Shown: positions 22,415 through 51,617 of the stretch, in pieces | How positions within the stretch are numbered: position 1 is the first letter of the stretch | How the letters are laid out: each line of letters begins with the position of its first letter | Virus record (IMG/VR): IMGVR_UViG_3300045988_168232 | Coordinates: 46,269-110,268 of that record | Length of the DNA: 64,000 bases | Source: a virus | Strand: one strand, 5' to 3' | The notes under the pieces: generated by a model | Told to the model about the DNA's origin: nothing | Databases searched by the model: none | What the model saw: the letters and a program-made list of their open reading frames with translations, nothing else | Translations under genes and position numbers: made by a program

Positions 22415-24340
22415 ATGAACAATAATAATATTGTCAAAATAGGAACCGCCCTTAAATGGCGCAATACATTTGATATTACAAAAAAATATTATCAAGAAAA
22501 CGTAGTCACTGTATGTGGTTGCGTATTTCGATGTAAAGTGTTGCAGGCGCAAGGTAAAACACCGGTTCACATAGCAGATGATGCAGGGCATCTTGCTTTT
22601 GCTAATACAGATGTTTGGGATGTAATTGTTGATATGGTGTATTATTACAATTTCGCCATTGATACTAATAATCTCACAAAAGAAACATTAGAGTATATTA
22701 AAAAATTAGATGCTGAATGGCAGAAGCAACAGAAAGAAATTGAAGCGATTCAAAAAGATAACAAGAAACAATGGGAACGCATAATTGAAATTGAAAAATT
22801 AAATGCTGAACAACAACGTGAAATCAATTCTGTTCTAGACACATATAGTTGCTTTAGTGAAGGTATTTGGTTTGATACATTGCTTTGGAACAATGACTTG
22901 TTATGGAATAACAACAAGTATGCAATTACAGATAATCTCCAAAATCAAATTGATGAACTTTCAAATCGTCATAGAGAGGACATTGAACAAATCAATTCAG
23001 ATATTGAAGAGATTAATGCGCATATGGCTCAGCACGAGGAGGAACAGCGTCAAATTAATAATTATCTGTTGGAACAGAATGATAATTGGAATAATTCTAT
23101 AAGCTGCTTTAGTGAAGGTATATGGGAGAATTTGTTGCATTGGGGCAATCTGTCTTTATGGGACAACAATAAATTTTCTATTACAGAGGATTTGCAAAGT
23201 CAGATTGATGATATTGTAAAACAGCATGATGATGACATAAAGAATACAATCAGTCGTTTTGAAGAAGATGAATTGTTGATAAATGAGCATGATGCACAGT
23301 TAGTGGATTTGCTGGAGCGATTTTGTTGCTTCAATAATGGCCAATGGGATAACGAATTAAAATGGAATAATGCAACTGTATGGGAAAATTCAAATATGAT
23401 GTGCAACACATTTAAAAATGTGTTGGATAAAATAGATGAACATGATACGAGCATAGCAAATCTCATTGATGAACATGAAATTATTTATAAAAGTATTGAT
23501 CGTTTAGAAGAGGAGATTGCCAATAATAAAACAGCAAATAAAGAGCAACAGAAACAAATAGATGATCTTCTTAGAATTCATTCAGTCATAAACAATGGCT
23601 TTTGGGATAACAGTTTGCTTTGGACCAATGAATCGGAATGGACCAATCAAACGCCCGTTGACCAATTAATTGAAGTGGTTGTCCAGAATACAAATGATAT
23701 TGCTCAAAATAAAAAAGAGCTGGATGACTTAAATGCGGATGCAGAAGAATTGGAAAAGAGTGTGGCGAGGTCTGAGAATAACATCAAGACTATCAACACG
23801 CAATTAGAAGAAATCTCAAAAGGACAAACTGTTCAGAATGAGAAAATTGCACAGATTGGATCACACTTCTGTTGTTTCGCAGATGGAATATGGGGAGATT
23901 GGTTTTTGTGGCATAATGATGATATATGGGCTAACAATGTAAATAATCATGAAAGCCGAATTTCTGAGATGGAGATGCAGTTTGCCAGCATGATGAATAC
24001 GCTTGTAATCCAGCAGAAACAACTTACGGAGCAGATGGAAGAGCTTGATAGGCAGAAGGCTCTTCTTAATACCATAATGGTTTGTTTGTCTGTAATCAGT
24101 GTCGGCGCATGGAACAACGATCTATTATGGTATAATGAAGCTAGATGGTCAAATGGTAATTTCTCGGAAAATGACAAGTTGACAATACAATCTTATGATA
24201 AAAATAGCGGGACAATAATATTGAATCCTGTTGCATACTATTATAATGAGATGGAACAATCTCTCGAATTCAAGGATGTGGGGTATTCTTATGACAAACC
24301 TACAGAAACCTTGGATTTTGACGTATTAAGTAAACCCTAA
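22415..24340 (+). CDS. tail fibre protein with six W-x-N triad knots separated by coiled-coil segments
   Basis: A 641-aa ORF. Long heptad-rich Q/E/I/N segments are punctuated six times by (C-F-x-x)-G-x-W-x-N-x-L-x-W-x-N-x-x-x-W-x-N. Confidence 0.6.
   Translation: MNNNNIVKIGTALKWRNTFDITKKYYQENVVTVCGCVFRCKVLQAQGKTPVHIADDAGHLAFANTDVWDVIVDMVYYYNFAIDTNNLTKETLEYIKKLDAEWQKQQKEIEAIQKDNKKQWERIIEIEKLNAEQQREINSVLDTYSCFSEGIWFDTLLWNNDLLWNNNKYAITDNLQNQIDELSNRHREDIEQINSDIEEINAHMAQHEEEQRQINNYLLEQNDNWNNSISCFSEGIWENLLHWGNLSLWDNNKFSITEDLQSQIDDIVKQHDDDIKNTISRFEEDELLINEHDAQLVDLLERFCCFNNGQWDNELKWNNATVWENSNMMCNTFKNVLDKIDEHDTSIANLIDEHEIIYKSIDRLEEEIANNKTANKEQQKQIDDLLRIHSVINNGFWDNSLLWTNESEWTNQTPVDQLIEVVVQNTNDIAQNKKELDDLNADAEELEKSVARSENNIKTINTQLEEISKGQTVQNEKIAQIGSHFCCFADGIWGDWFLWHNDDIWANNVNNHESRISEMEMQFASMMNTLVIQQKQLTEQMEELDRQKALLNTIMVCLSVISVGAWNNDLLWYNEARWSNGNFSENDKLTIQSYDKNSGTIILNPVAYYYNEMEQSLEFKDVGYSYDKPTETLDFDVLSKP
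22849..24157 (+). repeat. array of six protein-level repeats (W-x-N triads)
   Basis: The copies lie at ~22849-22915, 23105-23170, 23327-23392, 23585-23647, 23873-23938 and 24092-24157. Examples: CFSEGIWFDTLLWNNDLLWNNN, CFSEGIWENLLHWGNLSLWDNN, CFNNGQWDNELKWNNATVWENS. Confidence 0.85.
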
Positions 24341-24396
24341 ATGTGGAGGGGTAAAGATCCACAACTATATATTAACTGCTTAATTTAATAGAAAAC

Positions 24397-25131
24397 ATGG
24401 CAGATTTAAATGTAACTCGTTTTATCATTGACGGTAAAACATTCGCAATTCCAGGTGCAGGTGCCGCACAAGCAGGTTTGATGTCGGCTGAAGACTTCAA
24501 AAAATTATCAGGCGTTGCAGCCGGTGCACAGGTCAATGTAATTGAAAGCGTGAAAATCAATGGTGTTGCTTTAGAAGTAGCCTCAAAGATTGTGGATATC
24601 CTGATCACTTCCGGTACTAAAAATGGTACTGTCAAAGTGAATGGTGTTGATGTAGAAGTAAAAGGACTGGCAGCATTGGCTTACAAGTCTCAAATTACTG
24701 AAACTGAATTGGCAGAAGCCTTGAAGCAAGTCATTAATGCAAAGGCTGAACAGAGTGAGGTTGACACTTTGAATGAAAAAATTGATGTCTTGAATGGCGC
24801 AGGCGAAGGCTCTGTAAACAAAGCTGTAACAGATGCGATCAATAAATTTGCGACTGATGTTACCGATGATGACGTTGTAAATTCATTTAAGGAATTGGTT
24901 GATTGGGCTGCTTCACATGGATCTGAGGCAAGTGAGATAGTTGCTTCCGTTGAAGAACTAAAATTAAATAAGGTTGATAAGATGGTTGGATATGGTCTTT
25001 CAAAGAACGACTTCACTGATGATTTAAAAGACAAACTGAATGGTATCGCAGCCAAGGCGACAGCTAATACCTATAGTTACGATGAAGGCACCCAGACTTT
25101 GACTCTGACTGGTTTTACAGTAGCTCAATAA
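24397..25131 (+). CDS. tail fibre-associated protein
   Basis: The N-terminal AGAAQAGLMSAEDFKKLSG is a motif common in phage fibre proteins (aGLMsaeDk.KL). The centre is coiled-coil. Confidence 0.45.
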   Translation: MADLNVTRFIIDGKTFAIPGAGAAQAGLMSAEDFKKLSGVAAGAQVNVIESVKINGVALEVASKIVDILITSGTKNGTVKVNGVDVEVKGLAALAYKSQITETELAEALKQVINAKAEQSEVDTLNEKIDVLNGAGEGSVNKAVTDAINKFATDVTDDDVVNSFKELVDWAASHGSEASEIVASVEELKLNKVDKMVGYGLSKNDFTDDLKDKLNGIAAKATANTYSYDEGTQTLTLTGFTVAQ

Positions 25132-25155
25132 TTCATATCCTAAAGCTAAATCCCA

Positions 25156-25614
25156 ATGGCAGACAACGATGTATTCAAAACACTAAAAATAGGAGGCAAA
25201 AGTTTTGGCGTGAAACCTTGTTGGGAACAACTTGGAATCACAAAAGACTATATGCTTGCTCTGTTAAACCGTGATGAATATACTCCCGTTGCGACCAAAC
25301 AACCATCATATACAGATACACTTTATACTGACCCGGTAAGTGGAAATCCAGCAGGGTTTCATGCCGGACAGTGTGTGGTATATCCAGATTACGATATTCC
25401 GGACGGATGGGGGCTTTCAATAGCCAAATACGTCCTTTACGATGATCAGGGAATTCCTACAAAAGTATTTTGGTATCATGCGACAGACATTGAAAAACAC
25501 ATTGCTTCATTAGAGGAAAATGTCACAAAGACTTTTTATGGATGTCTTGGTACTGGATTGTGGGTAAATGAATTTCCATGGCAAAATGATGCTGTTTGGA
25601 ACAATGGTATTTAA
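25156..25614 (+). CDS. hypothetical fibre-module protein ending in one W-x-N triad motif
   Basis: The C-terminus CLGTGLWVNEFPWQNDAVWNNGI (nt 25543-25608) matches the repeat found in the 22415 fibre. Confidence 0.5.
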   Translation: MADNDVFKTLKIGGKSFGVKPCWEQLGITKDYMLALLNRDEYTPVATKQPSYTDTLYTDPVSGNPAGFHAGQCVVYPDYDIPDGWGLSIAKYVLYDDQGIPTKVFWYHATDIEKHIASLEENVTKTFYGCLGTGLWVNEFPWQNDAVWNNGI

Positions 25615-25632
25615 AGTTTTTGTTTAACGAGA

Positions 25633-25644
25633 CTATTATATATT
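25633..25644 (+). promoter_or_regulatory. CTATTAT motif upstream of the DGR target gene
   Basis: CTATTATATATT lies 44 nt upstream of ATG 25677. Confidence 0.35.
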
Positions 25645-25676
25645 GATTAAATATTTAAATCAAAAAATCAAGTAAT

Positions 25677-26483
25677 ATGGCAACAGAAATTACAATGGAA
25701 ACCGACTGGGGAGCGAAAGGCGCTCAGTTGACTGGAGCACAGGTTCAAGCGTTCATAAAAGAACAATTGAAGTCTTTGCATGAAAAGGACACTTCACTTC
25801 AGAATCAAATTAACAATTCAGAGCCTCGGTTGCAGGCTGCAACAGATGGCTGTTTTGTCACTTATCATCGTAAAAGTGACAATTGGCCTTTAGCTGTTCC
25901 ATATTGGAAATGGCCGGATTTGGAAAAAGCAGGAGAAAAAGCTGATGGAGTACTTGTATTGATTGACGGACAAGCACCTATTATTGTTTCTCCAACTGGT
26001 ACTCAGCTTAAATGGTCCAAGAATGCTGTAGCTGTTAATACTAATGTTGGTAGCGATTACAGTAAAGCTTATGTCGATTACACTGGTAAAACTCGGACCG
26101 CTGCTATCATAGCAAAAGGTACAGAATTGTTTGGTGATAATAAAAGTGAATGGAATCAGTATGCGCCGGCGTGGTGTAATGCTTATGACCGTTCCTATGA
26201 TAAGGGCGATGAAGCACATACTAAAATCGGTATTGGCGCAGGACAATGGTGGTTGCCATCTATTGCAGAGTTGATCATCATCTGGAAACACAAGTATGCA
26301 ATCAATCAATGTCTCTCAGTCATTTCGGGCGCCAGCCCGCTTGTTGAGAGTTGGCATTGGAGTTCTACTGAGCACTCGGCGACGTACGCTTGGTACTTGA
26401 ACCTGTACGACGGCAACCTCGGCAGCTGGTACACTAAGGTGTCGCTCAGCGGCTATGTGCGTGCCGTGGCAGCATTTCATTAA
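25677..26483 (+). CDS. DGR target (variable) protein, DUF1566/C-type-lectin-fold-like C-terminus
   Basis: The C-terminal WWLPSIAELIIIW...WHWSSTEHSATYAWYLNLYDGNLGSWYTKVSLSGYVRAVAAFH contains the VR. The VR ends 5 nt before the stop codon. The gene lies among tail-fibre genes. Confidence 0.85.
   Translation: MATEITMETDWGAKGAQLTGAQVQAFIKEQLKSLHEKDTSLQNQINNSEPRLQAATDGCFVTYHRKSDNWPLAVPYWKWPDLEKAGEKADGVLVLIDGQAPIIVSPTGTQLKWSKNAVAVNTNVGSDYSKAYVDYTGKTRTAAIIAKGTELFGDNKSEWNQYAPAWCNAYDRSYDKGDEAHTKIGIGAGQWWLPSIAELIIIWKHKYAINQCLSVISGASPLVESWHWSSTEHSATYAWYLNLYDGNLGSWYTKVSLSGYVRAVAAFH
26367..26478 (+). repeat. DGR variable repeat (VR)
   Basis: A 112-nt match to TR 27245..27356 with 12 mismatches, every one at a TR adenine. 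The 3' 25 nt (TATGTGCGTGCCGTGGCAGCATTTC) are identical in both copies. Confidence 0.92.
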
Positions 26484-26491
26484 CCCTTTAT

Positions 26492-26560
26492 CCCTTCAAC
26501 CCTTTAACTCTTCGGAGCGAAGCGACGTGCGAGCAACGCGAGCATAAAAGGGTTGAAGGG
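26492..26560 (+). promoter_or_regulatory. long inverted repeat 14 nt downstream of the VR (possible DGR target-recognition hairpin/cruciform)
   Basis: CCCTTCAACCCTTT (26492-26505) pairs perfectly with AAAGGGTTGAAGGG (26547-26560). An inner hairpin CTTCG-GAG-CGAAG lies at 26510-26522. Confidence 0.5.
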
Positions 26561-26744
26561 GTAGTATATATTCAACTTATCACAAGAGACGTCGCCTTTT
26601 GGAAGGTTCAGTATGGTTCCAACCTCTTGTATAAAATGAGTATATATGGAATGTTAAATCAAGGGTTGGTAATTTGATGATAATCAGTGTTTTGTAGTTA
26701 AGAGAATTGATGAAAGCAGTGTTTAAATAAAAAGAGAAGTTGTT

Positions 26745-27125
26745 ATGGCTTTATCCAACGAATTACCGGTTTATATAGATACATATCATTACATTCAAGC
26801 AGTACTCGATACTCACAAAAATTTCCCAAGAGATATCAAACATACAGTTGGGCAGGAATGGATTAGAAGAGTAATTACGCTCCCTACTTTTATAGTACGG
26901 GCAAATATGTTCAAAAGTGAACGTGAAGCGTATCTTACTGATTTCATTTGTGAATTTGAGTTCTGCAAATTGATAGTTCGTTTAGCTGGTGAAAATCATT
27001 GGATAAGCCGTAAGCAACAATCTCACCTTATGTATTTGGAGGCGGCTGTCGGCAAACAAGTGACAGCATGGAAGAACGCATCAAAAGCAAAATATCGGAA
27101 ACGTATTAATGAAGCCGAAAAATAG
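26745..27125 (+). CDS. avd: DGR accessory variability determinant (Avd)
   Basis: A 126-aa basic helical protein. LPVYIDTYHYIQAVLDTHKNFPRDIKHTVGQEWIRR fits the Avd/four-helix-bundle family pattern. It sits in the canonical avd-TR-RT position. Confidence 0.75.
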   Translation: MALSNELPVYIDTYHYIQAVLDTHKNFPRDIKHTVGQEWIRRVITLPTFIVRANMFKSEREAYLTDFICEFEFCKLIVRLAGENHWISRKQQSHLMYLEAAVGKQVTAWKNASKAKYRKRINEAEK

Positions 27126-27244
27126 TAATTGATGCAACGCACGGAGTATGGAAGTTTACGGATGACCATAGAGTTTGCGCTTCCGTGAGAAATGGGGGTA
27201 CTACTGCCATTATGTAGTTAAGGATAAGAAAATGTACCCGATAC

Positions 27245-27356
27245 ACTGAGAACTCGGCGACGAACGCTTGGAACTTGAACCTGAACGACGGCAACCTCAA
27301 CAACTGGAACACTAAGGTGTCGAACAGCAACTATGTGCGTGCCGTGGCAGCATTTC
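27245..27356 (+). repeat. DGR template repeat (TR)
   Basis: A noncoding 112-nt copy of the VR containing 11 in-frame AAC codons. It lies between avd and the RT gene and is GC-rich relative to its surroundings. Confidence 0.92.
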
Positions 27357-27427
27357 TCCGAAAGGTAATTTTGCGAATAAGTAATTGTAGTACAATATAA
27401 AATAAGTATTATCACATTAGTGCTGAT

Positions 27428-28759
27428 ATGGTGACGTATGAGGATTTGGTAGAGGCCTATTATGATTGTCGTGTACATAAGTCGCGGACAAACAACTGCA
27501 TTAAGTTTACTCTTGATGTAGAGGGTAATCTATATGATATGATGCAAGCCATCAACAATAGAACCTACCAGCCTAAACGCTCCATTTGCTTTGTCGTTAG
27601 TCGCCCCAAATACCGTGAGGTGTTCGCTGCTGATTTTGCAGACCGAATCGTGCATCATTACATCAGGTTACGGTTAGAACCGATTATTGAGCAAAAATTT
27701 AATGATAGGACATTTAATTGTAGAAACGGAAAAGGCACATTGGCTGGAGTTACACAGTTGAAGCACGATATGATTGAATGTTCTCATAATTATACAACAG
27801 ACTGTTATGTAGCAACAGTGGACATCAACAGTTTCTTTATGTCTATCCCTAAAAAACTTGTTGAAAATTTAGTTATTCAACTTGTGAAGGACAAATATGA
27901 TGGCGATGACAAAGAGGACTTAATTTATTTATGCCACGTTGTATTAAGCCATAGCCCGGAGGACAATTGCATCAAACATTCATCAGACGAAATGTGGACG
28001 CATCTACCGTCCAGCAAATCATTGTTTACTAACGGAAAGGGGCTGGGTATGCCAATTGGTAATCTGCCATCTCAGATGTTTGCTAATTACTTATTAAATG
28101 AAGTTGATTGGGCTATTGAAACGGATTGTGGTATTAAATATCACGGACGCTATGTGGATGATATTTATCTTGTTGCAGAAACAAAAGAACAAATCCTAAA
28201 CGCCATTCCAATCATCAGGACACGCTTGGAATCATTAGGGCTTAAATTATCTCCAAATAAATTTTATATACAACATTACAGCAAAGGTATAGATTTTACC
28301 GGTGCTATAGTAAAACCTGGAAGGGTCTATCCTTTGAATCGGACTGTCACTTCATTCAGACACAGTATTGACAGACTCAACCAGTGTAAAACCAAATCTC
28401 AGATAATAAAAGCATTGTATTCCGTAAATAGCTATTTAGGGCTAATGAGACAATATAATAGCTATGCTATCAGATATAATGCCCTACATGAAATAGATAA
28501 AAGATTGTATAAATGGATATATATTAAAGGCAATATGGAAGTAGTTGCCCTGAAAAGAAAATATCATCCTAAAACACGTATAAATTATAGATTATCACAT
28601 GGGCTTAATCACAAATTGTCATTACCAAGACCTATAGCTGATTTTGAAGAAAGAGAAGATAGAACAAAATATATCAGACTATTGGCTGAGTACACTTCAG
28701 TCGATATTTTCCCAATAAGTGAACTTAAAGAGAGAGCAAGACTATTATCTAATATATAA
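27428..28759 (+). CDS. DGR reverse transcriptase
   Basis: RT motifs are present: PKYREVFAADFADRIVHH, VDINSFFMSI and the YVDD catalytic box (HGRYVDDIYLVAE). The DGR-clade signature (I/L)GxxxSQ appears as PIGNLPSQ. Confidence 0.92.
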   Translation: MVTYEDLVEAYYDCRVHKSRTNNCIKFTLDVEGNLYDMMQAINNRTYQPKRSICFVVSRPKYREVFAADFADRIVHHYIRLRLEPIIEQKFNDRTFNCRNGKGTLAGVTQLKHDMIECSHNYTTDCYVATVDINSFFMSIPKKLVENLVIQLVKDKYDGDDKEDLIYLCHVVLSHSPEDNCIKHSSDEMWTHLPSSKSLFTNGKGLGMPIGNLPSQMFANYLLNEVDWAIETDCGIKYHGRYVDDIYLVAETKEQILNAIPIIRTRLESLGLKLSPNKFYIQHYSKGIDFTGAIVKPGRVYPLNRTVTSFRHSIDRLNQCKTKSQIIKALYSVNSYLGLMRQYNSYAIRYNALHEIDKRLYKWIYIKGNMEVVALKRKYHPKTRINYRLSHGLNHKLSLPRPIADFEEREDRTKYIRLLAEYTSVDIFPISELKERARLLSNI

Positions 28760-28788
28760 CATAAGTTTAATTTTAAAATTGTTGAGAC

Positions 28789-29181
28789 ATGAGTGAAATT
28801 AAAAATGTCAATGAAATTGACGAACTTAACGGGTCTGAAATTTTAACCCCGGAGCAGATTGCAGAAATTGAAGCTCAAAAAGATCAAGAACTGTTTGGCG
28901 ATAATGTCAAAAAAATTGGTGGATGTGCCGTAGTGACCGTTGACAACGAAGTTATTGCTGTAGAGATGCCGTTTACTTATCCGCAGCTTGTGACGGCGAT
29001 TGTGCGACATAAATATGGCTCAGACCAAACCGAAGCCATTCTTGCCAATATTATTTCAACACAGACGATGCAAGTGTCAGAGGAAAAGGCAGATGAATAT
29101 CTGAATGAGTACACCACATACAACAACTGGCGAAACAAGGCAAAAAGTATTGCAAAGGAAGTTCTTGGAGTAGAAGAGTAA
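28789..29181 (+). CDS. hypothetical acidic protein downstream of the DGR RT
   Basis: A 130-aa ORF followed by a strong terminator. Confidence 0.5.
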   Translation: MSEIKNVNEIDELNGSEILTPEQIAEIEAQKDQELFGDNVKKIGGCAVVTVDNEVIAVEMPFTYPQLVTAIVRHKYGSDQTEAILANIISTQTMQVSEEKADEYLNEYTTYNNWRNKAKSIAKEVLGVEE

Positions 29182-29195
29182 CAATCTCTTGATAG

Positions 29196-29236
29196 AAAGC
29201 CGCCCTTGGGTGAATGTATCCTTGGGCGGCTTTTTA
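29196..29236 (+). terminator. rho-independent terminator
   Basis: AAAGCCGCCC (29196-29205) pairs with GGGCGGCTTT (29224-29233), followed by TTT. Confidence 0.7.
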
Positions 29237-29287
29237 TAGGCAGATGATAAGTTTCAAGGTATAATTCATAAAAAATAAGGCGATGAA

Positions 29288-29302
29288 CTATTATTAATAA
29301 AA
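29288..29302 (+). promoter_or_regulatory. CTATTAT...TAAAA motif
   Basis: CTATTATTAATAAAA lies downstream of terminator 29196-29236 and 25 nt upstream of ATG 29313. Confidence 0.4.
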
Positions 29303-29312
29303 ACGAATACGA

Positions 29313-29984
29313 ATGTTACAATATAAGGTCAGAAGCGGACAAAACATATATGATGTTGCTCTAACTCTCTATGGTAGTGTAGAGGGAATTTTTGACTTGC
29401 TTGTAAGCAATGAAGGGCTAAACATGGATACAAAGTTATCCTATGGCATGATACTCAATTACCATGAAGAGTTTGCAATAAATAAAGACATTGTTATATG
29501 GTTAAAAGACAACAATATACTGGTAAAGAATGGGGAGCATGTACATAATTATCTTGATATAGAAAAACTTATAAAATCACATATCCAAACTTATCATCAG
29601 GACATATACGATGAGTTACAGCTTATGTCTCCGGACGAACAAGATATGTATTGGGAATCCTTATACATGCCTCGGATGGTAATCCAGCAACAAGGACAAT
29701 TGTCATCTATCAAATTAAAATTGAAGCCTCAAAAACACCTAATTGTTGATTGGGGGGATTACACACAACCACTTATCGTGGAAATTAATGAAGAACATGA
29801 AATTGAACATTGCTATAAAGGAAATGGGCAACACACTATTACATTATATGGAGATTTTGAATTTGAATTGTTCGATTTAAAAGAAGTAAATGGCGTGTAC
29901 TATCCACTTGGAACCATTTATGCCGATACATTTATATCAGAATTGGATATTGAGGATTCAAAAAAACTGATAATAACACAATGA
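29313..29984 (+). CDS. baseplate-module protein with LysM-like N-terminus (P2 gpX-like, tentative)
   Basis: The N-terminal YKVRSGQNIYDVALTLYGSVEGIFDLLVSNEGLNMDTKLSYGMILNY has a LysM-like pattern. Confidence 0.35.
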   Translation: MLQYKVRSGQNIYDVALTLYGSVEGIFDLLVSNEGLNMDTKLSYGMILNYHEEFAINKDIVIWLKDNNILVKNGEHVHNYLDIEKLIKSHIQTYHQDIYDELQLMSPDEQDMYWESLYMPRMVIQQQGQLSSIKLKLKPQKHLIVDWGDYTQPLIVEINEEHEIEHCYKGNGQHTITLYGDFEFELFDLKEVNGVYYPLGTIYADTFISELDIEDSKKLIITQ

Positions 29985-30931
29985 GAAGCGTGAGTCAAAT
30001 CTATTCAGAAGCTGTTGCTACAAGAAACAATTACTTGCAGTTGACAGAACTAAATACTGGGAGAAGTAACAGTAAACTCAGCATGATTAACCTGCTAACG
30101 TATGTAGTAGCTGTTTGTATTCATACTTATGAAGCAATATTAGACTTGTTTCAGGTTAAATTAGTCGAGGTTCTTGATGGTAGAATTAACGGAACTCCAG
30201 ATTGGTATGCTATCATAGCTAAAAAATTTCAATATAATGACACTACAGAGACAGGCGACCAATTGATTTTCAATGAAAACACTATGAAGCTTGAATATGC
30301 CGATGTAAATATGTCTCATAGAATAATTGAAAAAGCTGCATGGCAAAATGATGAAAATGGAACATCCCTAATACTTAAAGTATGTAAGGCAAATGACAAT
30401 TCAAATGAAATCAATAATGGAATACCATATATGCCATTGAATGACCATGAATTGACCGCATTCAGAATGTTTATTCAACAAATAAAATTTGTCGGAGCAG
30501 ACATTTATTGTGAAAGTTCACCAGGTGATATTGTGACTATTGTTGCAGACAAATACAATCCCATATTTTATAATGATAGTTATGTTACCGCTGCACAAGC
30601 ACTTACAAATCTACAACAAGCCATGATAGATTTTGCCAATGAAATGGAATTTAACGGAATGTTTTACTATCAGTCTGCATTAGACGTGATAAGAAAGACA
30701 GAGCACATCACTGATATTGGCAATAACATCAAAATTTATGTAAGTTCATACAATAGCGAAGACCGAAAATATAATGAGCCGGTTGAATTGGTTGGACGAA
30801 TAAAACTGAAAAGTGGTTATATTCGACTACTTGATACAGATTCAGCAATAACAGTCAATAGTGATAACTTAACATTGGTTCCGGCTTCAAAAATGGACCA
30901 GTATTTTGAATCATTGAATCCTGAGAAATGA
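29981..30931 (+). CDS. hypothetical baseplate/wedge protein
   Basis: A 316-aa ORF with 4-nt overlaps on both neighbours, suggesting translational coupling. Confidence 0.45.
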   Translation: MRSVSQIYSEAVATRNNYLQLTELNTGRSNSKLSMINLLTYVVAVCIHTYEAILDLFQVKLVEVLDGRINGTPDWYAIIAKKFQYNDTTETGDQLIFNENTMKLEYADVNMSHRIIEKAAWQNDENGTSLILKVCKANDNSNEINNGIPYMPLNDHELTAFRMFIQQIKFVGADIYCESSPGDIVTIVADKYNPIFYNDSYVTAAQALTNLQQAMIDFANEMEFNGMFYYQSALDVIRKTEHITDIGNNIKIYVSSYNSEDRKYNEPVELVGRIKLKSGYIRLLDTDSAITVNSDNLTLVPASKMDQYFESLNPEK

Positions 30932-31569
30932 TAAATATTGATTTTGCAAATATCAATAATGCCAAATTGATTGGGCGGCTCTTACCTTTTTGGGCAAGAG
31001 GTAAAAAAGTGTCTTTGCTTTTACAAGCAATCCTGTACCCAATTGCTTCGGTTCATAATTTATTTAAAATATGGGCATTAGAAAAATTCATAGAGTGTCA
31101 CATAACTGCTCAAAAAGCATCGTTGGAATGGTATCTGAGATATAAGCTTAAATCTCATTTTCATAATGAAAATGATAACTTTTTCATTACACATGGCATT
31201 AATGAATCACTATCATGTTTTAGTAGTGACGTTTGGCGTAATGGATTACATTGGGACAACAACTTACGATGGAACGTGGAAACTGAATCATTAGTACACA
31301 TGAATATGAACCTGTCTTGCATAAACACTGGTATGTGGGAAAATAGGATGTTATGGAACAATGCTCTGCTGTGGGATAATGAAGATAATGGCAAAAAATA
31401 TAATGATGACTATTTGGAAATTGTAAATCAGACGAATGTCTATGCCCCAGCCATCATTGATACGGTAGATTATAACCATGAGGATTACGAACGTGACATT
31501 AGAAATATCATGTCCAAATTCATGATCAACTTCAATAAAATACATATTATAATTGCGGATACAGAGTAA
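30928..31569 (+). CDS. hypothetical fibre-module protein with two W-x-N triad motifs
   Basis: CFSSDVWRNGLHWDNNLRWNVE lies at nt 31216-31278 and CINTGMWENRMLWNNALLWDNE at nt 31318-31380. Confidence 0.5.
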   Translation: MINIDFANINNAKLIGRLLPFWARGKKVSLLLQAILYPIASVHNLFKIWALEKFIECHITAQKASLEWYLRYKLKSHFHNENDNFFITHGINESLSCFSSDVWRNGLHWDNNLRWNVETESLVHMNMNLSCINTGMWENRMLWNNALLWDNEDNGKKYNDDYLEIVNQTNVYAPAIIDTVDYNHEDYERDIRNIMSKFMINFNKIHIIIADTE

Positions 31570-48835: not shown

Positions 48836-49855
48836 ATGATTATCACACCAGAAATGCAGCGTTCCATTACAGAAGAGCTGCTCTATGACTTTAGAGGCAA
48901 GATGGACGGGTCTCGCCGGAATATACTTATACAACATTGTCCTTTCTGTGGACATGACGGTTTTAAGTATGGTATTTATGTTGGAAACAATCTTGGAAAG
49001 AAGCGCTTTGGTATGTCTAATTGCTATCATTGTAACAGACGATATGGTTCATTGAAGGAAACTCTGAAAGCACTTGGAAGAGAGGATTTACTTCCAAAAG
49101 AAACAGCGCAACTTGATGACTCAGAAACAGATATTTCATCCATGTTTGACGATGAAATAGATGATGAATTGGTTGACGCAGTAATGCCGAATGGTTATAA
49201 ACGCTGCTACAGAAATAGCTATTTGAAATCACGTGGTTGGGTTATGGATGATTATGAATATTTCCCGGTTGGTACTAATCGTGGTTTTGATAGAGAGTAC
49301 AATGATTATATTATTTTAGAGGTTCGTGATGAGGGTCGATGCGTTGGATTTGTTGCACGTAGCATTCTTAGTAAAGATGAGATAGATTCATATAATTCCA
49401 GACATCATTTTAAGATACGTCGATATAAAAATTCAGATGAACGTATGGGTAATGGATTTTCTAAAATGTTATATAATTATGATGCTATTGAAACAATGAC
49501 TACTCACTCTGTAATTCTGTGCGAAGGGCCATTCGATGTTGTTGGGCTTAATCGAAAATTAGAACTTTATGACAACAAACATATTGTTCCGGTAGCAACT
49601 TTCGGCAAAAAGATTAGTCAGGAGCAAATGTTTAAGTTGCAGAAAAAAGGTGTTGAACAAATTGTGATAGGTTATGACAATGACGCAAAAGAAACCACAT
49701 CCAGAATTGCTATGGAATTGGAAAAATACTTTGACGTACTGATTGCTGACATACCTAATGGCGTTGGTAAAGACTGGGATGAAATGGATGTTGAGGATAT
49801 CTATGATGTCTTTGCTTTTAATTTAAAAACTATTCGTGAATTTAATCTTGGATAA
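48836..49855 (+). CDS. DNA primase (Zn-finger + Toprim)
   Basis: The Zn finger is CPFCGH...CYHCNRRYGS. The Toprim motif is VILCEGPFDVVG ... VIGYDNDAKE. Confidence 0.65.
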   Translation: MIITPEMQRSITEELLYDFRGKMDGSRRNILIQHCPFCGHDGFKYGIYVGNNLGKKRFGMSNCYHCNRRYGSLKETLKALGREDLLPKETAQLDDSETDISSMFDDEIDDELVDAVMPNGYKRCYRNSYLKSRGWVMDDYEYFPVGTNRGFDREYNDYIILEVRDEGRCVGFVARSILSKDEIDSYNSRHHFKIRRYKNSDERMGNGFSKMLYNYDAIETMTTHSVILCEGPFDVVGLNRKLELYDNKHIVPVATFGKKISQEQMFKLQKKGVEQIVIGYDNDAKETTSRIAMELEKYFDVLIADIPNGVGKDWDEMDVEDIYDVFAFNLKTIREFNLG

Positions 49856-51617
49856 AATGAGTGAAGCAGTAACATTAAAAGAATGGCTTGACAATCATCA
49901 TATAACTTATTCTCTAAGAAAAGATGTATTGGTTATTCCTGGATTTGGTAGATGTTTAATTCAGGAAAGTTACGACCATATTTTCAAACAGAATAAAGAT
50001 GGGGAGACTGTTTTTAATTCTATTGAAAACATATCATATCTTTTGGCTGATGATATTACTTATATCGTTTTTCCATTTGGTTGCAGATGGTTTTATGTGG
50101 ATATCCGTAATGACCCATTGGATTTACAATTTCAAATACTTAGATATGTTGGTGATTCTCCTGTATTTGAACATAAATGTGAATTTTATCCGCTTGGTAT
50201 CCACTCTGGATATGAATTACTAAATGGAAGTGGTTTATTGAAAGATTGGTGCACAAAAACAAAATTTTTAGGATATAAAGGTTTATCTGTTGCGGATAGA
50301 AATACAATGGCAGCGTCTTTGGATTTACAGCAATCCGCAACAGAAAAAGGTATTAAATATTGCTTTGGCTATTCATTGACAGTAAATACTGGAAAAGATA
50401 AAGTTGGGGTTAAAATATATTCGGCTACGCAACAGGGGTTTAAAAATATGCTCCGTATTCAAAAGGCAATAGCTGTTGATAATATAGACACCAAAGAGAT
50501 TAATCTGATTGATTTTTTGAATTTGGCAGATGGTAATACTTTGGTATTTGATAAATGGTCCGGACATTGGTTGACCGACAATAAGGGGATTCTTCAGGAT
50601 TTTATTACAGCTTTTTCTGGGTGGGTGTTTTTTCAAGTTGATACAACTGAATATCGTGCAGACAGAATAGATTCAACTCTTCTTCAAAGTCAAAAGGCAT
50701 ATTTTGATAATTTTTATTTAGGTGATTTAGAGTATTATATGGATGTCCGTCCAGTTTTGATTCAAGATGTATATTATTTGGATAAAGAGGACTGGAAAAC
50801 AAAAATCATTCTCAATAAAATTGATACTGGTGCGGCACATGAACAATCACATAATCAATATTTGAAAACTATAGACGAATTGTATAATGAATTTAGATCT
50901 CTATTCTCAGACCGATATGATGATGATGTGTTTTATGATATGTGTGAATCCACTGCCGACATTATTGAAAATGCCACAGCTGCTTATGATTTGAGTGATA
51001 ACTATGCTCCCAAATATGATATGACTCCACAGGAGCAGGCTAAATATGGCAATACGCTTAATATGTTTCACCAATTAATAGAAGAGGGGTTTAAGAAGCT
51101 GGTTCCAGAGGGGGAGGAAGAGCGATATCGTAAACGTGTTGAATATGAAAAATATGTCATAGAGAGTACGGATAACGTAGATTATTTCTTGATTCAGAGA
51201 GATGAGTTGAATTGGGCGCAAGAAAATGGTATTTTGACTGGAATTGGTCGTGGATCTGCCGGAGGATGTTTATTGTTATATTTGATGGGCATTACATTTA
51301 TTGACCCACTTAAATATGATTTGATTTTTGAGCGTTTCCTGTTACCTGAGAGAGCCGGTCTTGTGCCTGATAAAGTAACAATAGTGGCGGAAGAAATTCA
51401 GTCTTCGGATTATTTTGAATTGGCTTTTGAAAATGGGGAAAGACTCTTGCTTGATAAAGATGCAGAATTGGTTGTAAATCGCAATGGAGAGCAATTGATT
51501 GTGTATGCAGATGAACTGCAAGAAGGTGATGATATTCAGTTTGATAATTGTGATTTACTTCACACGTTGCCTAATATTTTGCAGTATGAAAATTCAATCC
51601 ATAATCAGAAAAACTAA
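49836..51617 (+). CDS. dnaE: DNA polymerase III alpha (DnaE-type), N-terminal fragment ending in a split-intein-N-like tail
   Basis: A PHP-like region is followed by GIGRGSAGGCLLLYLMGITFIDPLKYDLIFERFLLPER, which is DnaE-conserved. Homology then breaks. The last ~87 aa (AGLVPDK...DYFELAFENGERLLLDKDAELVV...LHTLPN...) look like a Hint-fold N-half. Confidence 0.8.
   Translation: MNLILDKMSEAVTLKEWLDNHHITYSLRKDVLVIPGFGRCLIQESYDHIFKQNKDGETVFNSIENISYLLADDITYIVFPFGCRWFYVDIRNDPLDLQFQILRYVGDSPVFEHKCEFYPLGIHSGYELLNGSGLLKDWCTKTKFLGYKGLSVADRNTMAASLDLQQSATEKGIKYCFGYSLTVNTGKDKVGVKIYSATQQGFKNMLRIQKAIAVDNIDTKEINLIDFLNLADGNTLVFDKWSGHWLTDNKGILQDFITAFSGWVFFQVDTTEYRADRIDSTLLQSQKAYFDNFYLGDLEYYMDVRPVLIQDVYYLDKEDWKTKIILNKIDTGAAHEQSHNQYLKTIDELYNEFRSLFSDRYDDDVFYDMCESTADIIENATAAYDLSDNYAPKYDMTPQEQAKYGNTLNMFHQLIEEGFKKLVPEGEEERYRKRVEYEKYVIESTDNVDYFLIQRDELNWAQENGILTGIGRGSAGGCLLLYLMGITFIDPLKYDLIFERFLLPERAGLVPDKVTIVAEEIQSSDYFELAFENGERLLLDKDAELVVNRNGEQLIVYADELQEGDDIQFDNCDLLHTLPNILQYENSIHNQKN

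What the first reader, a model, noticed from the sequence alone, without database searches (positions are those of the whole stretch)
25677..28759. Complete diversity-generating retroelement (target-VR / Avd / TR / RT) embedded in the tail-fibre module
**Seen directly**
- TR (27245-27356) and VR (26367-26478) are 112 nt long and differ at exactly 12 positions.
- Every difference is an adenine in TR: A->C, T or G at TR offsets 7, 19, 28, 40, 55, 56, 59, 64, 79, 80, 85 and 86.
- TR carries 11 in-frame AAC codons. Nine of them differ in the VR, giving H, Y, Y, Y, G, S, Y, L and G.
- The last 25 nt are invariant and GC-rich, which is IMH-like.
- The VR is the extreme C-terminus of a DUF1566/CLec-like protein.
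- The adjacent 443-aa ORF has the RT motifs YVDD and IGNLPSQ.
- A 126-aa Avd-like ORF precedes TR.

**Established knowledge**
- Adenine-specific mutagenic retrohoming from TR to VR defines DGRs (the Bordetella BPP-1 paradigm).
- NNC substitution of AAC yields 15 amino acids and no stop codons.

**Inference**
- The AAC codons alone allow 15^11 (about 9e12) receptor-binding variants.
- The 72-nt TR-RT spacer (27357-27427) would hold the priming site.

The DGR class is known. What is notable here is that it sits in a large phage that shows no lysogeny genes in this window and carries its own DnaE replisome and sigma factor.
Basis: partly seen in the sequence, partly recalled or inferred. Interest (0 to 1): 0.8.

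Follow-up and report, generated by a model that had tools for sequence, protein, structure and literature searches.

The report
Active phage DGR with upstream RNA element
This gut Bacteroidales phage carries a complete, evidently active diversity-generating retroelement that rewrites the tip of a tail-associated binding protein; the element is of a known kind, but its conserved structured RNA sits upstream of the template instead of downstream as in the textbook case.

Summary
VR 26367-26478 and TR 27245-27356 are 112 nt long and differ at 12 positions, all TR adenines (chance 8e-8). The target (DUF1566/Lcl_C fold), Avd and a DGR-type RT are intact.

The element looks active. In about 25 related human-gut contigs the TR is almost invariant. 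Across 26 distinct VRs, 331 of 788 adenine sites differ from the TR, against 4 of 1499 other sites.

Three additions:
- Relatives carry a second, remote VR in a 233-aa non-structural protein. It lies outside this window.
- Both VRs are followed by a 14-bp inverted repeat that is kept through compensatory changes.
- A roughly 120-nt structured RNA (27124-27244) lies just 5' of the TR. It is conserved across RTs 42-100% identical, and 18 of 22 pairs covary. One strand pairs with the 3' edge of the TR. This suggests a permuted, retron-like arrangement of the BPP-1 spacer RNA.

"No lysogeny genes" is an effect of the window. Relatives encode a tyrosine recombinase and a ParA just outside it.

Verdict: a canonical DGR, with a probable new variant in RNA architecture.

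The parts
25677..26483 (+). DGR target gene 1 (268 aa): N-terminal helical part followed by a C-terminal DUF1566/Lcl_C-type ligand-binding domain
   Evidence: ORF. Pfam Lcl_C E 5e-7, below the cut-off. 192 homologues, nearly all carrying PF07603. AF2 model has pLDDT 90.6. Foldseek matches the Lcl C-terminal domain 8q4e (prob 1.0, rmsd 1.5 A) and Bacteroides fimbrial protein 4eps. It also matches phage DUF1566 and tail-fibre proteins at E down to 4e-11.
26367..26478 (+). Variable repeat (VR1), encoding the last 37 residues of the target
   Evidence: 12 of 12 mismatches to the TR fall at TR adenines. It differs at 15 of 112 nt from the VR of the closest relative, while the flanks differ at 8/690 and 4/766.
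26453..26478 (+). Invariant GC-rich 3' end of the VR (IMH-like); its counterpart in the TR is 27331-27356
   Evidence: 58% GC against 37% for the window. The synonymous A positions 105 and 108 never vary in 26 VRs. Homology to the TR ends exactly at 26478. Function is inferred.
26492..26560 (.). Inverted repeat 13 nt downstream of the VR: 14-bp arms 26492-26505 and 26547-26560 with a 41-nt loop. Candidate hairpin/cruciform for target recognition.
   Evidence: DNA fold z-scores of -4.2 to -5.3. Present after both VR1 and the remote VR2 in relatives, with 3 pairs changed on both sides and 96% of cells paired. Coordinates.
26745..27125 (+). avd (accessory variability determinant, 126 aa)
   Evidence: Pfam bAvd E 3e-14, above the cut-off. 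PHROG 3206 'Avd protein of DGR' E 5e-17. NCBIfam DivGenRetAVD E 2e-9, below the cut-off.
27124..27244 (+). Conserved structured RNA element immediately 5' of the TR. Helices: P1 27140-27145/27182-27187; P1a 27147-27151/27166-27170 capped by a small UACG-type hairpin; P2 about 27196-27199/27236-27239; P3 27200-27204/27214-27218. Invariant AAAUGGG motif and an A-rich single strand at 27219-27233.
   Evidence: About 97% invariant among genomes only about 72% identical overall. Covariance model R1 gives one hit per DGR locus in 722 kb; the window hit scores 93.7 bits, E 1e-26. 91.4% of cells are paired against 74.7% for shuffles and 32-47% for slid controls, and 18 of 22 pairs change on both sides. 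No Rfam family matches.
27180..27194 (+). Strand CUUCCGUGAGAAAUG of the 5' element, complementary to the 3' boundary of the TR. Proposed primer-side strand.
   Evidence: GAGAAAUG (27187-27194) pairs perfectly with CAUUUCUC (27351-27358). In 38 distinct clade members the duplex energy averages -8.4 kcal/mol against -4.2 +/- 2.4 for shuffled flanks, with many different complementary sequence pairs. The role is inferred.
27245..27356 (+). Template repeat (TR): 33 adenines, 11 in-frame AAC codons
   Evidence: Identical in 12 of 14 related contigs. In more distant relatives the non-A positions of TR and VR change together.
27351..27365 (+). TR 3' boundary and flank (CAUUUCUCCGAAAGG), which pairs with 27180-27194. 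The predicted first templating base is G27350.
   Evidence: Analogy with the TR117-129:Sp47-56 duplex of BPP-1 (paper 10.1101/2023.10.23.563531). Inferred.
27357..27427 (+). TR-RT spacer (71 nt), poorly conserved; contains a small hairpin over the RT start region
   Evidence: Its length is about 10-70 nt in relatives.
27428..28759 (+). DGR reverse transcriptase (443 aa) with IGNLPSQ and YVDD motifs
   Evidence: RVT_1 E 4e-19. PHROG 1423 E 2e-77. The best PDB sequence match is the 328-aa RT of 8ub7 (Bordetella phage bRT, from my recollection of the entry) at E 8e-20, against 6e-8 for group II intron RTs; IGSLTSQLFAN aligns with IGNLPSQMFAN.

Best explanation
This is a complete and currently active diversity-generating retroelement of a roughly 106-109-kb contractile-tailed phage of human-gut Bacteroidales.

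**Proposed mechanism.**
- A transcript spanning the avd-TR region is bound by the RT-Avd complex.
- The RT copies the TR into cDNA and misincorporates opposite adenines.
- The cDNA replaces the VR at the 3' end of a 268-aa DUF1566-type binding protein encoded in the baseplate/tail-fibre module. The last 37 residues of that protein are therefore continually re-randomised, mainly at 11 AAC codons.
- In relatives the same TR also rewrites a second, remote 233-aa DUF1566 protein.
- Target recognition probably uses the invariant GC-rich VR 3' end together with the 14-bp inverted repeat just downstream of each VR.

**Shown versus inferred.**
- Shown: the parts, the adenine-only pattern, population-level diversification, the conserved structures and their covariation.
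- Inferred: the biochemical steps. Also inferred is that the conserved roughly 120-nt RNA 5' of the TR, rather than the TR-RT spacer, plays the role of the BPP-1 spacer RNA (priming strand, stop duplex, Avd-binding hairpin).
For: **Parts and pattern.**
- TR/VR geometry and 12 of 12 adenine-specific mismatches (p = 8e-8).
- Only one TR/VR pair in the window.
- Avd and an RT closest to the Bordetella DGR RT, with the I/LGxxxSQ motif.
- Target fold is DUF1566/Lcl_C.

**Activity.**
- A search anchored only on the last 23 nt retrieved 14 TRs (12 identical) and 26 distinct VRs from human-gut viral and metagenome contigs.
- In the 89 unconstrained nt, 331 of 788 A sites differ against 4 of 1499 non-A sites, and 26 of 33 A positions vary.
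- No VR contains a stop codon.
- The closest relative (97.7% identical overall) differs at 13% of VR positions but at 1.2% or less of the flanks.
- In genomes about 72% identical, TR and VR share their non-A substitutions.

**Second target.**

**Cis elements.**
- Inverted repeat with compensatory changes at both targets.
- 5' RNA element.
- Pairing of that element with the TR 3' flank.
Against: - No experiment and no read-level data; activity is inferred from differences between assemblies.
- The Pfam hit of the target and the NCBIfam hit of Avd are below their curated cut-offs.
- The VR-proximal inverted repeat differs from the published consensus of a 7-10-bp GC-rich stem with a 4-nt GRNA loop (PMC3240598). 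It could instead be a terminator-like element.
- The whole avd-RT intergenic RNA is not unusually stable (z = +0.8).
- Helix P1 of the 5' element and the TR 3' flank compete for the same strand, so at most one of the two pairings exists at a time.
- The alignment used for pair counts was fitted to the model.
- A BPP-1-like downstream element overlapping the RT coding region cannot be excluded.
Confidence: 0.9

Rival explanations
1. The DGR works exactly as in BPP-1, with the functional spacer RNA lying 3' of the TR (the 71-nt spacer plus the 5' part of the RT coding region). On this view the conserved upstream element has another job, such as transcript start or processing, regulation of avd/RT expression, or RNA stability.
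For: - In 207 of 278 Avd-containing DGRs, Avd-binding stem-loops are predicted just downstream of the TR (paper 10.1101/2023.10.23.563531).
- The window clade keeps a few conserved patches and a hairpin in the spacer.
- Structure within the RT coding sequence was not tested.
Against: - The spacer shrinks to about 10-20 nt and is not conserved across the clade.
- The upstream element covaries strongly and occurs once per DGR, always abutting the TR.
- It is complementary to the TR 3' edge in many sequence variants.
- Its layout mirrors the BPP-1 cPRT-stop module: duplex strand, short stem-loop, A-rich single strand, then a partner strand 5 nt before the TR.
Confidence: 0.3
2. The cassette is a decayed or dormant DGR. 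On this view the VR differences are old, and today's VR variation among contigs comes from recombination between phage strains.
For: - Only assemblies were compared, not reads.
- A few non-A changes and one-codon deletions occur in VRs.
Against: - The RT, Avd and TR are intact, and the TR is identical in 12 of 14 contigs.
- 331 A-site changes against 4 non-A changes.
- Every VR is different, including between genomes 97.7% identical.
- Both targets are diversified independently within the same genome.
Confidence: 0.04
3. The inverted repeat after each VR is simply the transcription terminator or a stabilising 3' hairpin of the two target genes. It is not a retrohoming signal.
For: - It begins 8 nt after the stop codon of both target genes.
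- It has a long stem and a large loop, unlike the published DGR hairpins.
Against: - No U-run follows it.
- About 80 nt of 3' flank is the only sequence, apart from the VR itself, shared by two otherwise unrelated loci.
- The stem is kept by 3 double-sided changes.
- Published work shows DGR targets need such a structure (PMC3240598).
- The two roles are not mutually exclusive.
Confidence: 0.3
4. The phage is strictly virulent, which would make this a DGR in a large lytic phage.
For: - No integrase, repressor or excisionase family was found among the window ORFs scanned.
- The phage has its own DnaE, DnaB, primase, SbcCD and NrdD, and a weak sigma-70 region 2 hit.
- The exact TR anchor is absent from 185,579 species-representative genomes.
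Against: - Relatives 85-98% identical to the window encode a conserved 196-aa Phage_integrase-family protein (E 2e-24) and a ParA-type ATPase (E 4e-28) just outside the window.
- Relatives with RTs about 80% identical sit on 141- and 149-kb contigs in assemblies of cultured Lepagella muris and Prevotella sp. MGM2.
- The backbone relative BS-TP1 was isolated as a temperate phage with no chromosomal counterpart (PMC12694917).
- Together these fit an episomal (phage-plasmid-like) or carrier state.
Confidence: 0.25

Closest known systems
Bordetella phage BPP-1 DGR (mtd-avd-TR-brt), the prototype
   Same: - Same gene order: target-VR, avd, TR, RT.
- Adenine-only TR-to-VR differences, with AAC-rich TR codons.
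- The VR lies at the extreme C-terminus of a receptor-binding-type protein.
- GC-rich invariant VR 3' end.
- An inverted repeat downstream of the VR.
- The RT is the best PDB match.
- A duplex between the TR 3' end and another RNA strand, placed next to a second duplex whose partner strand lies just upstream of the TR.
   Different: - In BPP-1 the structured RNA (the 140-nt Sp) lies 3' of the TR. Here the conserved covarying RNA lies 5' of the TR and the 3' spacer is short and variable.
- The target is a DUF1566/Lcl_C-type domain, not Mtd.
- The target hairpin has a 14-bp mixed stem and a 41-nt loop, instead of an 8-bp GC stem with a GAAA loop.
- Relatives have two targets.
DGRs of Bacteroides uniformis siphophages F1/F2/F4 (Hedzet et al. 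2021, PMC8143477)
   Same: - Closest RT among isolated phages (48-51% aa).
- Same gene order, with a DUF1566-like target ending in the VR.
- The 5' RNA element is present (model hit in L002 at 48 bits, E 3e-12).
- The upstream strand pairs with the TR 3' flank (GUUAUCUG with CAGAUAAC).
   Different: - Small 40-kb phages with an adjacent recombinase.
- The VR-proximal hairpin is the canonical type, GGTACGGC-GAAA-GCCGTACC.
- The backbone is unrelated.
Quimbyvirus DGR (Benler et al. 2021, PMC8008677)
   Same: - A gut Bacteroides phage DGR in which one TR serves two targets.
- One target is in the structural module and the other among non-structural genes.
- Activity was shown in the same way, by comparing near-identical genomes.
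   Different: - A different phage family (about 75 kb).
- The RT is split over three frames.
- The second target lies in a defence island. Here the second target lies beside PcfJ/PcfK-like genes in the early-gene-like cluster.
Bacteroides phage BS-TP1 and Hankyphage (backbone relatives that carry DGRs)
   Same: - The major capsid protein is 50% (BS-TP1) and 34% (Hankyphage) identical.
- The Baseplate_J-like protein is 31% identical.
- In BS-TP1 the DGR sits in the same tail/baseplate module.
   Different: - The BS-TP1 RT is only 36% identical, and its target is a roughly 2,190-aa protein.
- The 5' RNA model finds nothing in the BS-TP1 locus.
- The DGR cassette here therefore belongs to a different RT lineage from that of its backbone relatives.
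Retron msr-msd non-coding RNA (topological analogue; from general knowledge)
   Same: - A strand 5' of the template pairs with sequence 3' of the template.
- This places a conserved G-rich site next to the point where reverse transcription starts.
- Here the corresponding features are 27187-27194 pairing with 27351-27358, followed by the invariant GGG.
   Different: - No evidence here for a branched msDNA product.
- This RT belongs to the DGR group, an Avd is present, and the cDNA is used for homing into a VR.

Membership tests
Diversity-generating retroelement (DGR) | Template/variable repeat pair whose differences are confined to template adenines | tested here: met
   12 of 12 mismatches fall at TR adenines (p = 8e-8). 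Across 26 VRs, 331 A-site changes against 4 non-A changes.
Diversity-generating retroelement (DGR) | Reverse transcriptase of the DGR group (I/LGxxxSQ in the motif-4 region, YxDD catalytic motif) | tested here: met
   IGNLPSQ and YVDD are present. The best solved-structure match is the 328-aa RT of 8ub7, E 8e-20, against 6e-8 for group II intron RTs. No phylogeny was built. NCBIfam has no DGR-RT model, and only sub-threshold hits to other RT families appear.
Diversity-generating retroelement (DGR) | Accessory protein Avd adjacent to the TR and RT | tested here: met
   Pfam bAvd 53.7 bits, above the cut-off of 40. PHROG 'Avd protein of DGR'.
Diversity-generating retroelement (DGR) | VR at the C-terminal end of a target protein with a C-type-lectin-like (here DUF1566) variable-ligand-binding fold | tested here: met
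   The VR encodes residues 231-267 of 268. The confident AF2 model matches the Lcl C-terminal domain and DUF1566 phage proteins. Matches to classical C-type lectins are only weak (E > 1), so 'CLec fold' in the strict sense is inconclusive.
Diversity-generating retroelement (DGR) | IMH-type invariant GC-rich 3' end of the VR, with divergence between the VR and TR flanks | tested here: met
   26 invariant nt at 58% GC. Homology ends at 26478/27356. Synonymous A105 and A108 never vary. Function was not tested.
Diversity-generating retroelement (DGR) | Hairpin/cruciform downstream of the VR (published form: 7-10-bp GC-rich stem, GRNA tetraloop, 4-34 bp from the VR) | tested here: inconclusive
   An inverted repeat lies 13 nt after the VR and is conserved with compensatory changes at both targets. 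It has a 14-bp stem of mixed composition and a 41-nt loop, so it departs from the published consensus.
Diversity-generating retroelement (DGR) | Ongoing mutagenic retrohoming | tested here: met
   Assembly-level evidence only. VRs are unique in every contig. VR divergence is 13% against 1.2% or less in the flanks of a genome 97.7% identical. Read-level and experimental tests could not be done here.
BPP-1-type DGR RNA architecture | Structured spacer RNA (priming strand, cPRT-stop strand, Avd-binding stem-loop) located 3' of the TR | tested here: not met
   The TR-RT spacer is 71 nt here and about 10-70 nt, unconserved, in the clade. The conserved covarying RNA is 5' of the TR. Structure inside the RT coding sequence was not examined.
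Rfam RNA families | Match of the 5' element or of the VR hairpin to any curated RNA family | tested here: not met
   No match at E <= 1 in 25000-29500 on either strand.
Temperate or episomal phage | Recombinase, partition or repressor genes; occurrence in bacterial genomes | tested here: inconclusive
   None in the window. Close relatives carry a tyrosine-recombinase catalytic-domain protein and a ParA outside the window. More distant relatives occur in isolate assemblies. The window's own genome outside the 64 kb is not available.

The most novel reading that the evidence does not exclude
In this RT lineage (Bacteroidales and some Clostridia phages, RT identity 42-100%), the DGR RNA is a circular permutation of the BPP-1 RNA and has a retron-like topology.

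The roughly 120-nt element 5' of the TR would supply three things:
- an Avd-binding-type hairpin (P1a/P1b with a UACG-type loop);
- the priming strand (27180-27194, pairing with the TR 3' edge at 27351-27365, so that synthesis would start opposite G27350, next to the invariant GGG);
- a stop module, made of P2 (whose 3' strand ends 5 nt before the TR), the P3 stem-loop and an A-rich strand.

If so, the cDNA is primed from a nucleotide upstream of its template, as in retrons. The 40-nt-upstream/100-nt-downstream windows used so far to survey DGR RNAs would then miss this class.
Probability: 0.45. Interest if true: 0.7.

Novelty: new variant of a known kind. Interest (0 to 1): 0.5.

Why it matters
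The DGR itself is a textbook system, so its presence mainly annotates the receptor-binding protein of an abundant, uncultured gut phage group and points to a second hypervariable protein of unknown role.

The wider value lies in the RNA. Mechanistic knowledge of DGR reverse transcription rests on one phage, BPP-1, in which all the essential structured RNA follows the template. A large clade appears to place the conserved, covarying RNA before the template, while keeping a duplex to the 3' edge of the template. Such a clade would:
- test which features of the BPP-1 ribonucleoprotein are general;
- link DGR and retron priming topologies;
- give compact, well-defined cis elements (about 240 nt from 27124 to 27365) for engineering targeted hypermutation in Bacteroidales.

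The analysis also shows that whether lysogeny genes are present cannot be judged from a partial genome window.

Tried and rejected
- **Megablast of the cassette against GenBank phages:** no match. Protein-level searches were needed.
- **tRNA scan:** none found.
- **Rfam at a permissive threshold over 25000-29500:** nothing.
- **PDB sequence searches with Avd and the target:** nothing.
- **NCBIfam for the RT:** only sub-threshold hits to group II, retron and DRT models, so it was uninformative for clade assignment.
- **Exact TR anchor in GTDB representative genomes:** none.
- **Second VR inside the window:** none, even allowing 12 non-A mismatches.
- **Folding the whole avd-RT intergenic RNA:** stability not unusual (z = +0.8), so single-sequence energy was dropped in favour of covariation.
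- **First helix assignment from the MAFFT columns:** out of register for most sequences. It was replaced by a covariance-model alignment.
- **RNAalifold alone:** recovered only P1b, P2 and P3.
- **Quimbyviridae membership:** considered and rejected, because genome size and replication genes differ. "Gratiaviridae"-like gene content (DnaE, DnaG, SbcCD, sheath) fits but was not tested phylogenetically.
- **Contigs of 125-173 kb as evidence for integration:** could not be examined beyond 10-kb flanks.
- **Syntax errors:** two literature calls failed.

Full report
**1. The observation.**
The window was read directly and its ORFs listed. An ungapped comparison at an offset of 878 nt shows that 26367-26478 (VR) and 27245-27356 (TR) are 112 nt long.
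- The TR holds 33 A in 112 nt, so the chance that 12 random mismatches all hit A is 8e-8.
- Similarity ends sharply on both sides.
- The VR is in frame with ORF 25677-26483 and ends 5 nt before its stop codon.
- The TR carries 11 in-frame AAC codons. Nine are changed in the VR, to H, Y, Y, Y, G, S, Y, L and G.
- A degenerate pattern (TR with every A replaced by N) finds only these two copies in the 64 kb, even with relaxed matching.
- Minor corrections: the invariant tail is 26 nt (58% GC against 37% for the window) and the TR-RT spacer is 71 nt.

**2. The genes.**
- ORF 26745-27125 is an Avd: Pfam bAvd E 3e-14 and PHROG "Avd protein of DGR".
- ORF 27428-28759 is a reverse transcriptase: RVT_1 E 4e-19 and PHROG 1423 E 2e-77.
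  - Its best match among all solved structures is the 328-aa RT of entry 8ub7, E 8e-20. I recall this entry as the Bordetella phage bRT-Avd-RNA complex.
  - Group II intron RTs score only 6e-8.
  - The DGR hallmark IGSLTSQLFAN aligns with IGNLPSQMFAN.
- The target gives a sub-threshold Lcl_C/DUF1566 hit.
  - Its 192 homologues almost all carry that domain.
  - An AlphaFold model built on 29 of them is confident, with pLDDT 90.6.
  - The model matches the Legionella Lcl C-terminal domain (prob 1.0, rmsd 1.5 A) and a Bacteroides fimbrial protein.
  - It also matches DUF1566 and tail-fibre proteins of crAss-like and other phages, with E down to 4e-11.
  - Classical C-type lectins match only weakly.

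**3. Context.**
The window encodes the following.
- Structural genes: a Mu-type portal, a protease, two sheath-like proteins, a 2,078-aa tape measure protein and baseplate hub proteins.
- Replication and other genes: NrdD, SbcCD, RuvC, DnaB, a primase, DnaE, an endolysin and TerL.

ORF 29981-30931 is homologous to the Baseplate_J-like gp20 of Bacteroides phage BS-TP1, so the DGR lies in the tail/baseplate module. The capsid protein is closest to a 99.8-kb gut contig (54%), to BS-TP1 (50%) and, more distantly, to Hankyphage (34%). The RT, however, is closest to the small B. uniformis phages F1/F2/F4 (48-51%) and only 36% identical to the RT of BS-TP1. The cassette lineage and the backbone lineage therefore differ.

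**4. Evidence of activity.**
Pattern scans of IMG/VR and of metagenome contigs returned only human-gut sequences 85-98% identical to the window. The second search was anchored only on the last 23 nt of the repeat, so the other 89 nt were unconstrained. It yielded 14 TRs, of which 12 are identical to the window's, and 26 distinct VRs.
- VRs differ from the TR at 331 of 788 adenine sites but at only 4 of 1499 other sites.
- 26 of the 33 A positions vary.
- No VR contains a stop codon.
- The nearest relative (97.7% identical overall) differs from the window at 15 of 112 VR positions. It differs at 8 of 690 positions in the rest of the gene and at 4 of 766 positions downstream.
- In genomes only about 72% identical (RT about 80%), TR and VR carry the same non-A substitutions, as expected if the VR is repeatedly overwritten from the TR.
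- Nine VRs lack one AAC of the AACAAC doublet although their TRs are full length. This suggests slippage.

**5. A second target.**
All near-complete relatives (106-109 kb) contain a third copy of the repeat, about 49 kb away on the opposite strand.
- It is the C-terminus of a 233-aa protein with a DUF1566-type domain.
- That protein is flanked by PcfK- and PcfJ-like genes in a block of small ORFs.
- It is diversified independently of VR1.
- By position it falls outside this window, and nothing like it lies inside.
- A one-TR, two-target arrangement with a non-structural second target has been described for Quimbyvirus (PMC8008677).

**6. Target-side cis element.**
Thirteen nucleotides after the VR lies a 14-bp inverted repeat (26492-26505 and 26547-26560) with a 41-nt loop.
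- It folds better than every shuffle (z = -4.2).
- Besides the VR itself, about 80 nt of this flank is the only sequence that the VR1 and VR2 loci share.
- The two stems differ at three pairs, each changed on both sides, and 96% of cells are paired.
- Published DGR targets need a hairpin or cruciform here. The consensus, though, is a 7-10-bp GC-rich stem with a GRNA tetraloop (PMC3240598), which is the form seen in phage F2.
- This is therefore an atypical version, and a terminator-like role is not excluded.

**7. RNA-side cis element.**
The 119 nt between the avd stop codon and the TR are about 97% invariant among genomes that are about 72% identical elsewhere. That makes this stretch more conserved than the flanking genes. 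Eighty further loci were fetched using an RT alignment.
- They show that the same element precedes the TR across the clade, whereas the TR-RT spacer varies from about 10 to 70 nt and is not conserved.
- RNAalifold recovered three helices.
- A covariance model with five helices was searched over 722 kb. It found exactly one hit per DGR locus, always on the RT strand and abutting the TR.
- The hits include non-seed sequences: phage F2 and a Clostridia MAG whose RT is 42% identical. The BS-TP1 locus gave no hit. The window hit scores 93.7 bits.
- On 56 distinct sequences, 91.4% of cells are paired, against 74.7% for shuffles and 32-47% for slid partners. 18 of 22 pairs show double-sided changes.
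- No Rfam family matches.

**8. How the element may work.**
The strand 27180-27194 (CUUCCGUGAGAAAUG) is complementary to the 3' boundary of the TR and its flank (27351-27365). GAGAAAUG pairs perfectly with CAUUUCUC.
- Across 38 distinct clade members this duplex averages -8.4 kcal/mol, against -4.2 +/- 2.4 for shuffled flanks.
- It is maintained by many different sequence pairs, for example UUCCGUAA/UUACGGAA, AUCUGUAAA/UUUACAGAU, GUUAUCUG/CAGAUAAC, UUAGAAAUG/CAUUUCUAA and CUUCCA/UGGAAG.

In BPP-1 the TR 3' end pairs with the priming strand of the spacer RNA. Next to that duplex lies a second one, whose partner strand is just upstream of the TR, followed by a short stem-loop and unpaired adenosines. 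All of this RNA lies 3' of the TR (bioRxiv 10.1101/2023.10.23.563531).

Here the same modules can be read in permuted order:
- a hairpin with a UACG-type loop (P1a/P1b);
- the primer-like strand;
- the P2 5' strand;
- the P3 stem-loop;
- an A-rich strand;
- the P2 3' strand, which ends 5 nt before the TR;
- the TR;
- the template-side strand.

This topology resembles a retron, in which the priming strand is 5' of the template (general knowledge). It predicts initiation opposite G27350, within the conserved CAGCA. That fits the complete lack of variation at the synonymous A105 and A108.

This step is inference. Helix P1 and the TR flank compete for the same strand, the pair counts come from a model-fitted alignment, and a downstream element hidden in the RT coding sequence is not excluded. 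Full-text searches of the held literature found no description of a structured element upstream of the TR.

**9. Lifestyle.**
No integrase-like family appears among the window ORFs scanned. The sigma-factor call rests on a weak region-2 hit (E 6e-4). I rebuilt 38 kb of the non-window part of a close relative from overlapping loci.
- It holds 76 small ORFs, 70 of them on the opposite strand.
- These include a 196-aa Phage_integrase-family protein (E 2e-24) about 3 kb upstream of the portal gene, and a 415-aa ParA-type ATPase (E 4e-28).
- They also include a dUTPase and a Tad2-like protein.
- Both the recombinase and the ParA are conserved in all close relatives, including the closest one.
- More distant relatives lie on 141- and 149-kb contigs in assemblies of cultured Lepagella muris and Prevotella sp. 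MGM2.
- BS-TP1 was reported as temperate, with no chromosomal homologue (PMC12694917).

An episomal or carrier lifestyle is therefore at least as likely as strict virulence.

**10. Verdict.**
The finding is real and correctly identified: a complete, active DGR, canonical in its proteins and its mutational signature. It is a new member of a well-known class. It has three departures: two targets (known elsewhere), an atypical target hairpin, and a well-supported structured RNA upstream rather than downstream of the template. The last of these probably represents a new architectural variant of the DGR RNA.

Noticed in passing
window 49836-54582: DnaE is split into two overlapping ORFs, 49836-51617 and 51499-54582. 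Pfam DNA_pol3_alpha positions 3-100 fall in the first and 94-260 in the second. This implies a frameshift, a split gene or an assembly error. The second ORF also contains an intein-splicing plus HNH insertion (residues about 476-698).
   Followed up: no
window 59936-62620: The large terminase (894 aa) carries a LAGLIDADG/Hom_end homing-endonuclease insertion (residues about 303-381), which suggests an intein.
   Followed up: no
window 22415-24340, 25156-25614, 30928-31569: A tryptophan-rich peptide repeat (roughly GxWxNxLxWxNxxxW) recurs about eight times in the 641-aa protein. It recurs at the C-terminus of the 152-aa protein just upstream of the DGR target, and in the 213-aa protein downstream. 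It may be a shared tail-fibre assembly or binding motif.
   Followed up: no
window 24004-25501: The segment holding ORFs 24397-25131 and 25156-25614, directly upstream of the DGR target, is missing from relatives L009, L011 and L017. This indicates cassette-like variation in the tail-fibre module.
   Followed up: no
L009, L017, L018, L020, L021, L027, L030-L032 (VRs of relatives): Nine of 26 distinct VRs, of both target classes, lack one AAC codon at the AACAAC doublet, although every cognate TR recovered is full length. This suggests recurrent template slippage during cDNA synthesis. The gap in L032 is placed slightly upstream by the aligner.
   Followed up: partly
IMGVR_UViG_3300045988_159396, contig 2255-40400 (L204, L202, L125): Outside the window, relatives carry a block of about 70 small ORFs on the opposite strand. 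It includes a 196-aa tyrosine recombinase made of the catalytic domain only, a ParA-like ATPase, a dUTPase, a Tad2-like anti-Thoeris protein, DUF4494 and a crAss001_48-like protein.
   Followed up: partly
L038 (Lepagella muris NM04_E33 NODE_9, 141 kb, coverage 810) and L039 (Prevotella sp. MGM2, 149-kb contig): Phages syntenic with window 18-42 kb at about 72% identity, with homologous DGRs, are present in assemblies of cultured Muribaculaceae-type isolates. The high-coverage contig hints at an episomal or actively replicating phage.
   Followed up: no
L054-L121 (IMG/VR loci): A very abundant clade of 393-aa RTs, about 54% identical to this one, shares the 5' RNA element. One member lies on a 3.4-Mb Prevotella MAG contig and so is probably a prophage. 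The element is therefore not restricted to this phage type.
   Followed up: partly
window 26519-26529 and VR2 flanks in relatives: The loop of the VR-proximal inverted repeat contains the conserved GAGCGAAGCGA. This includes GCGAAGC, which I recall as a very stable DNA mini-hairpin. Relative L009 lacks 17 nt of this loop yet still has a diversified VR.
   Followed up: no
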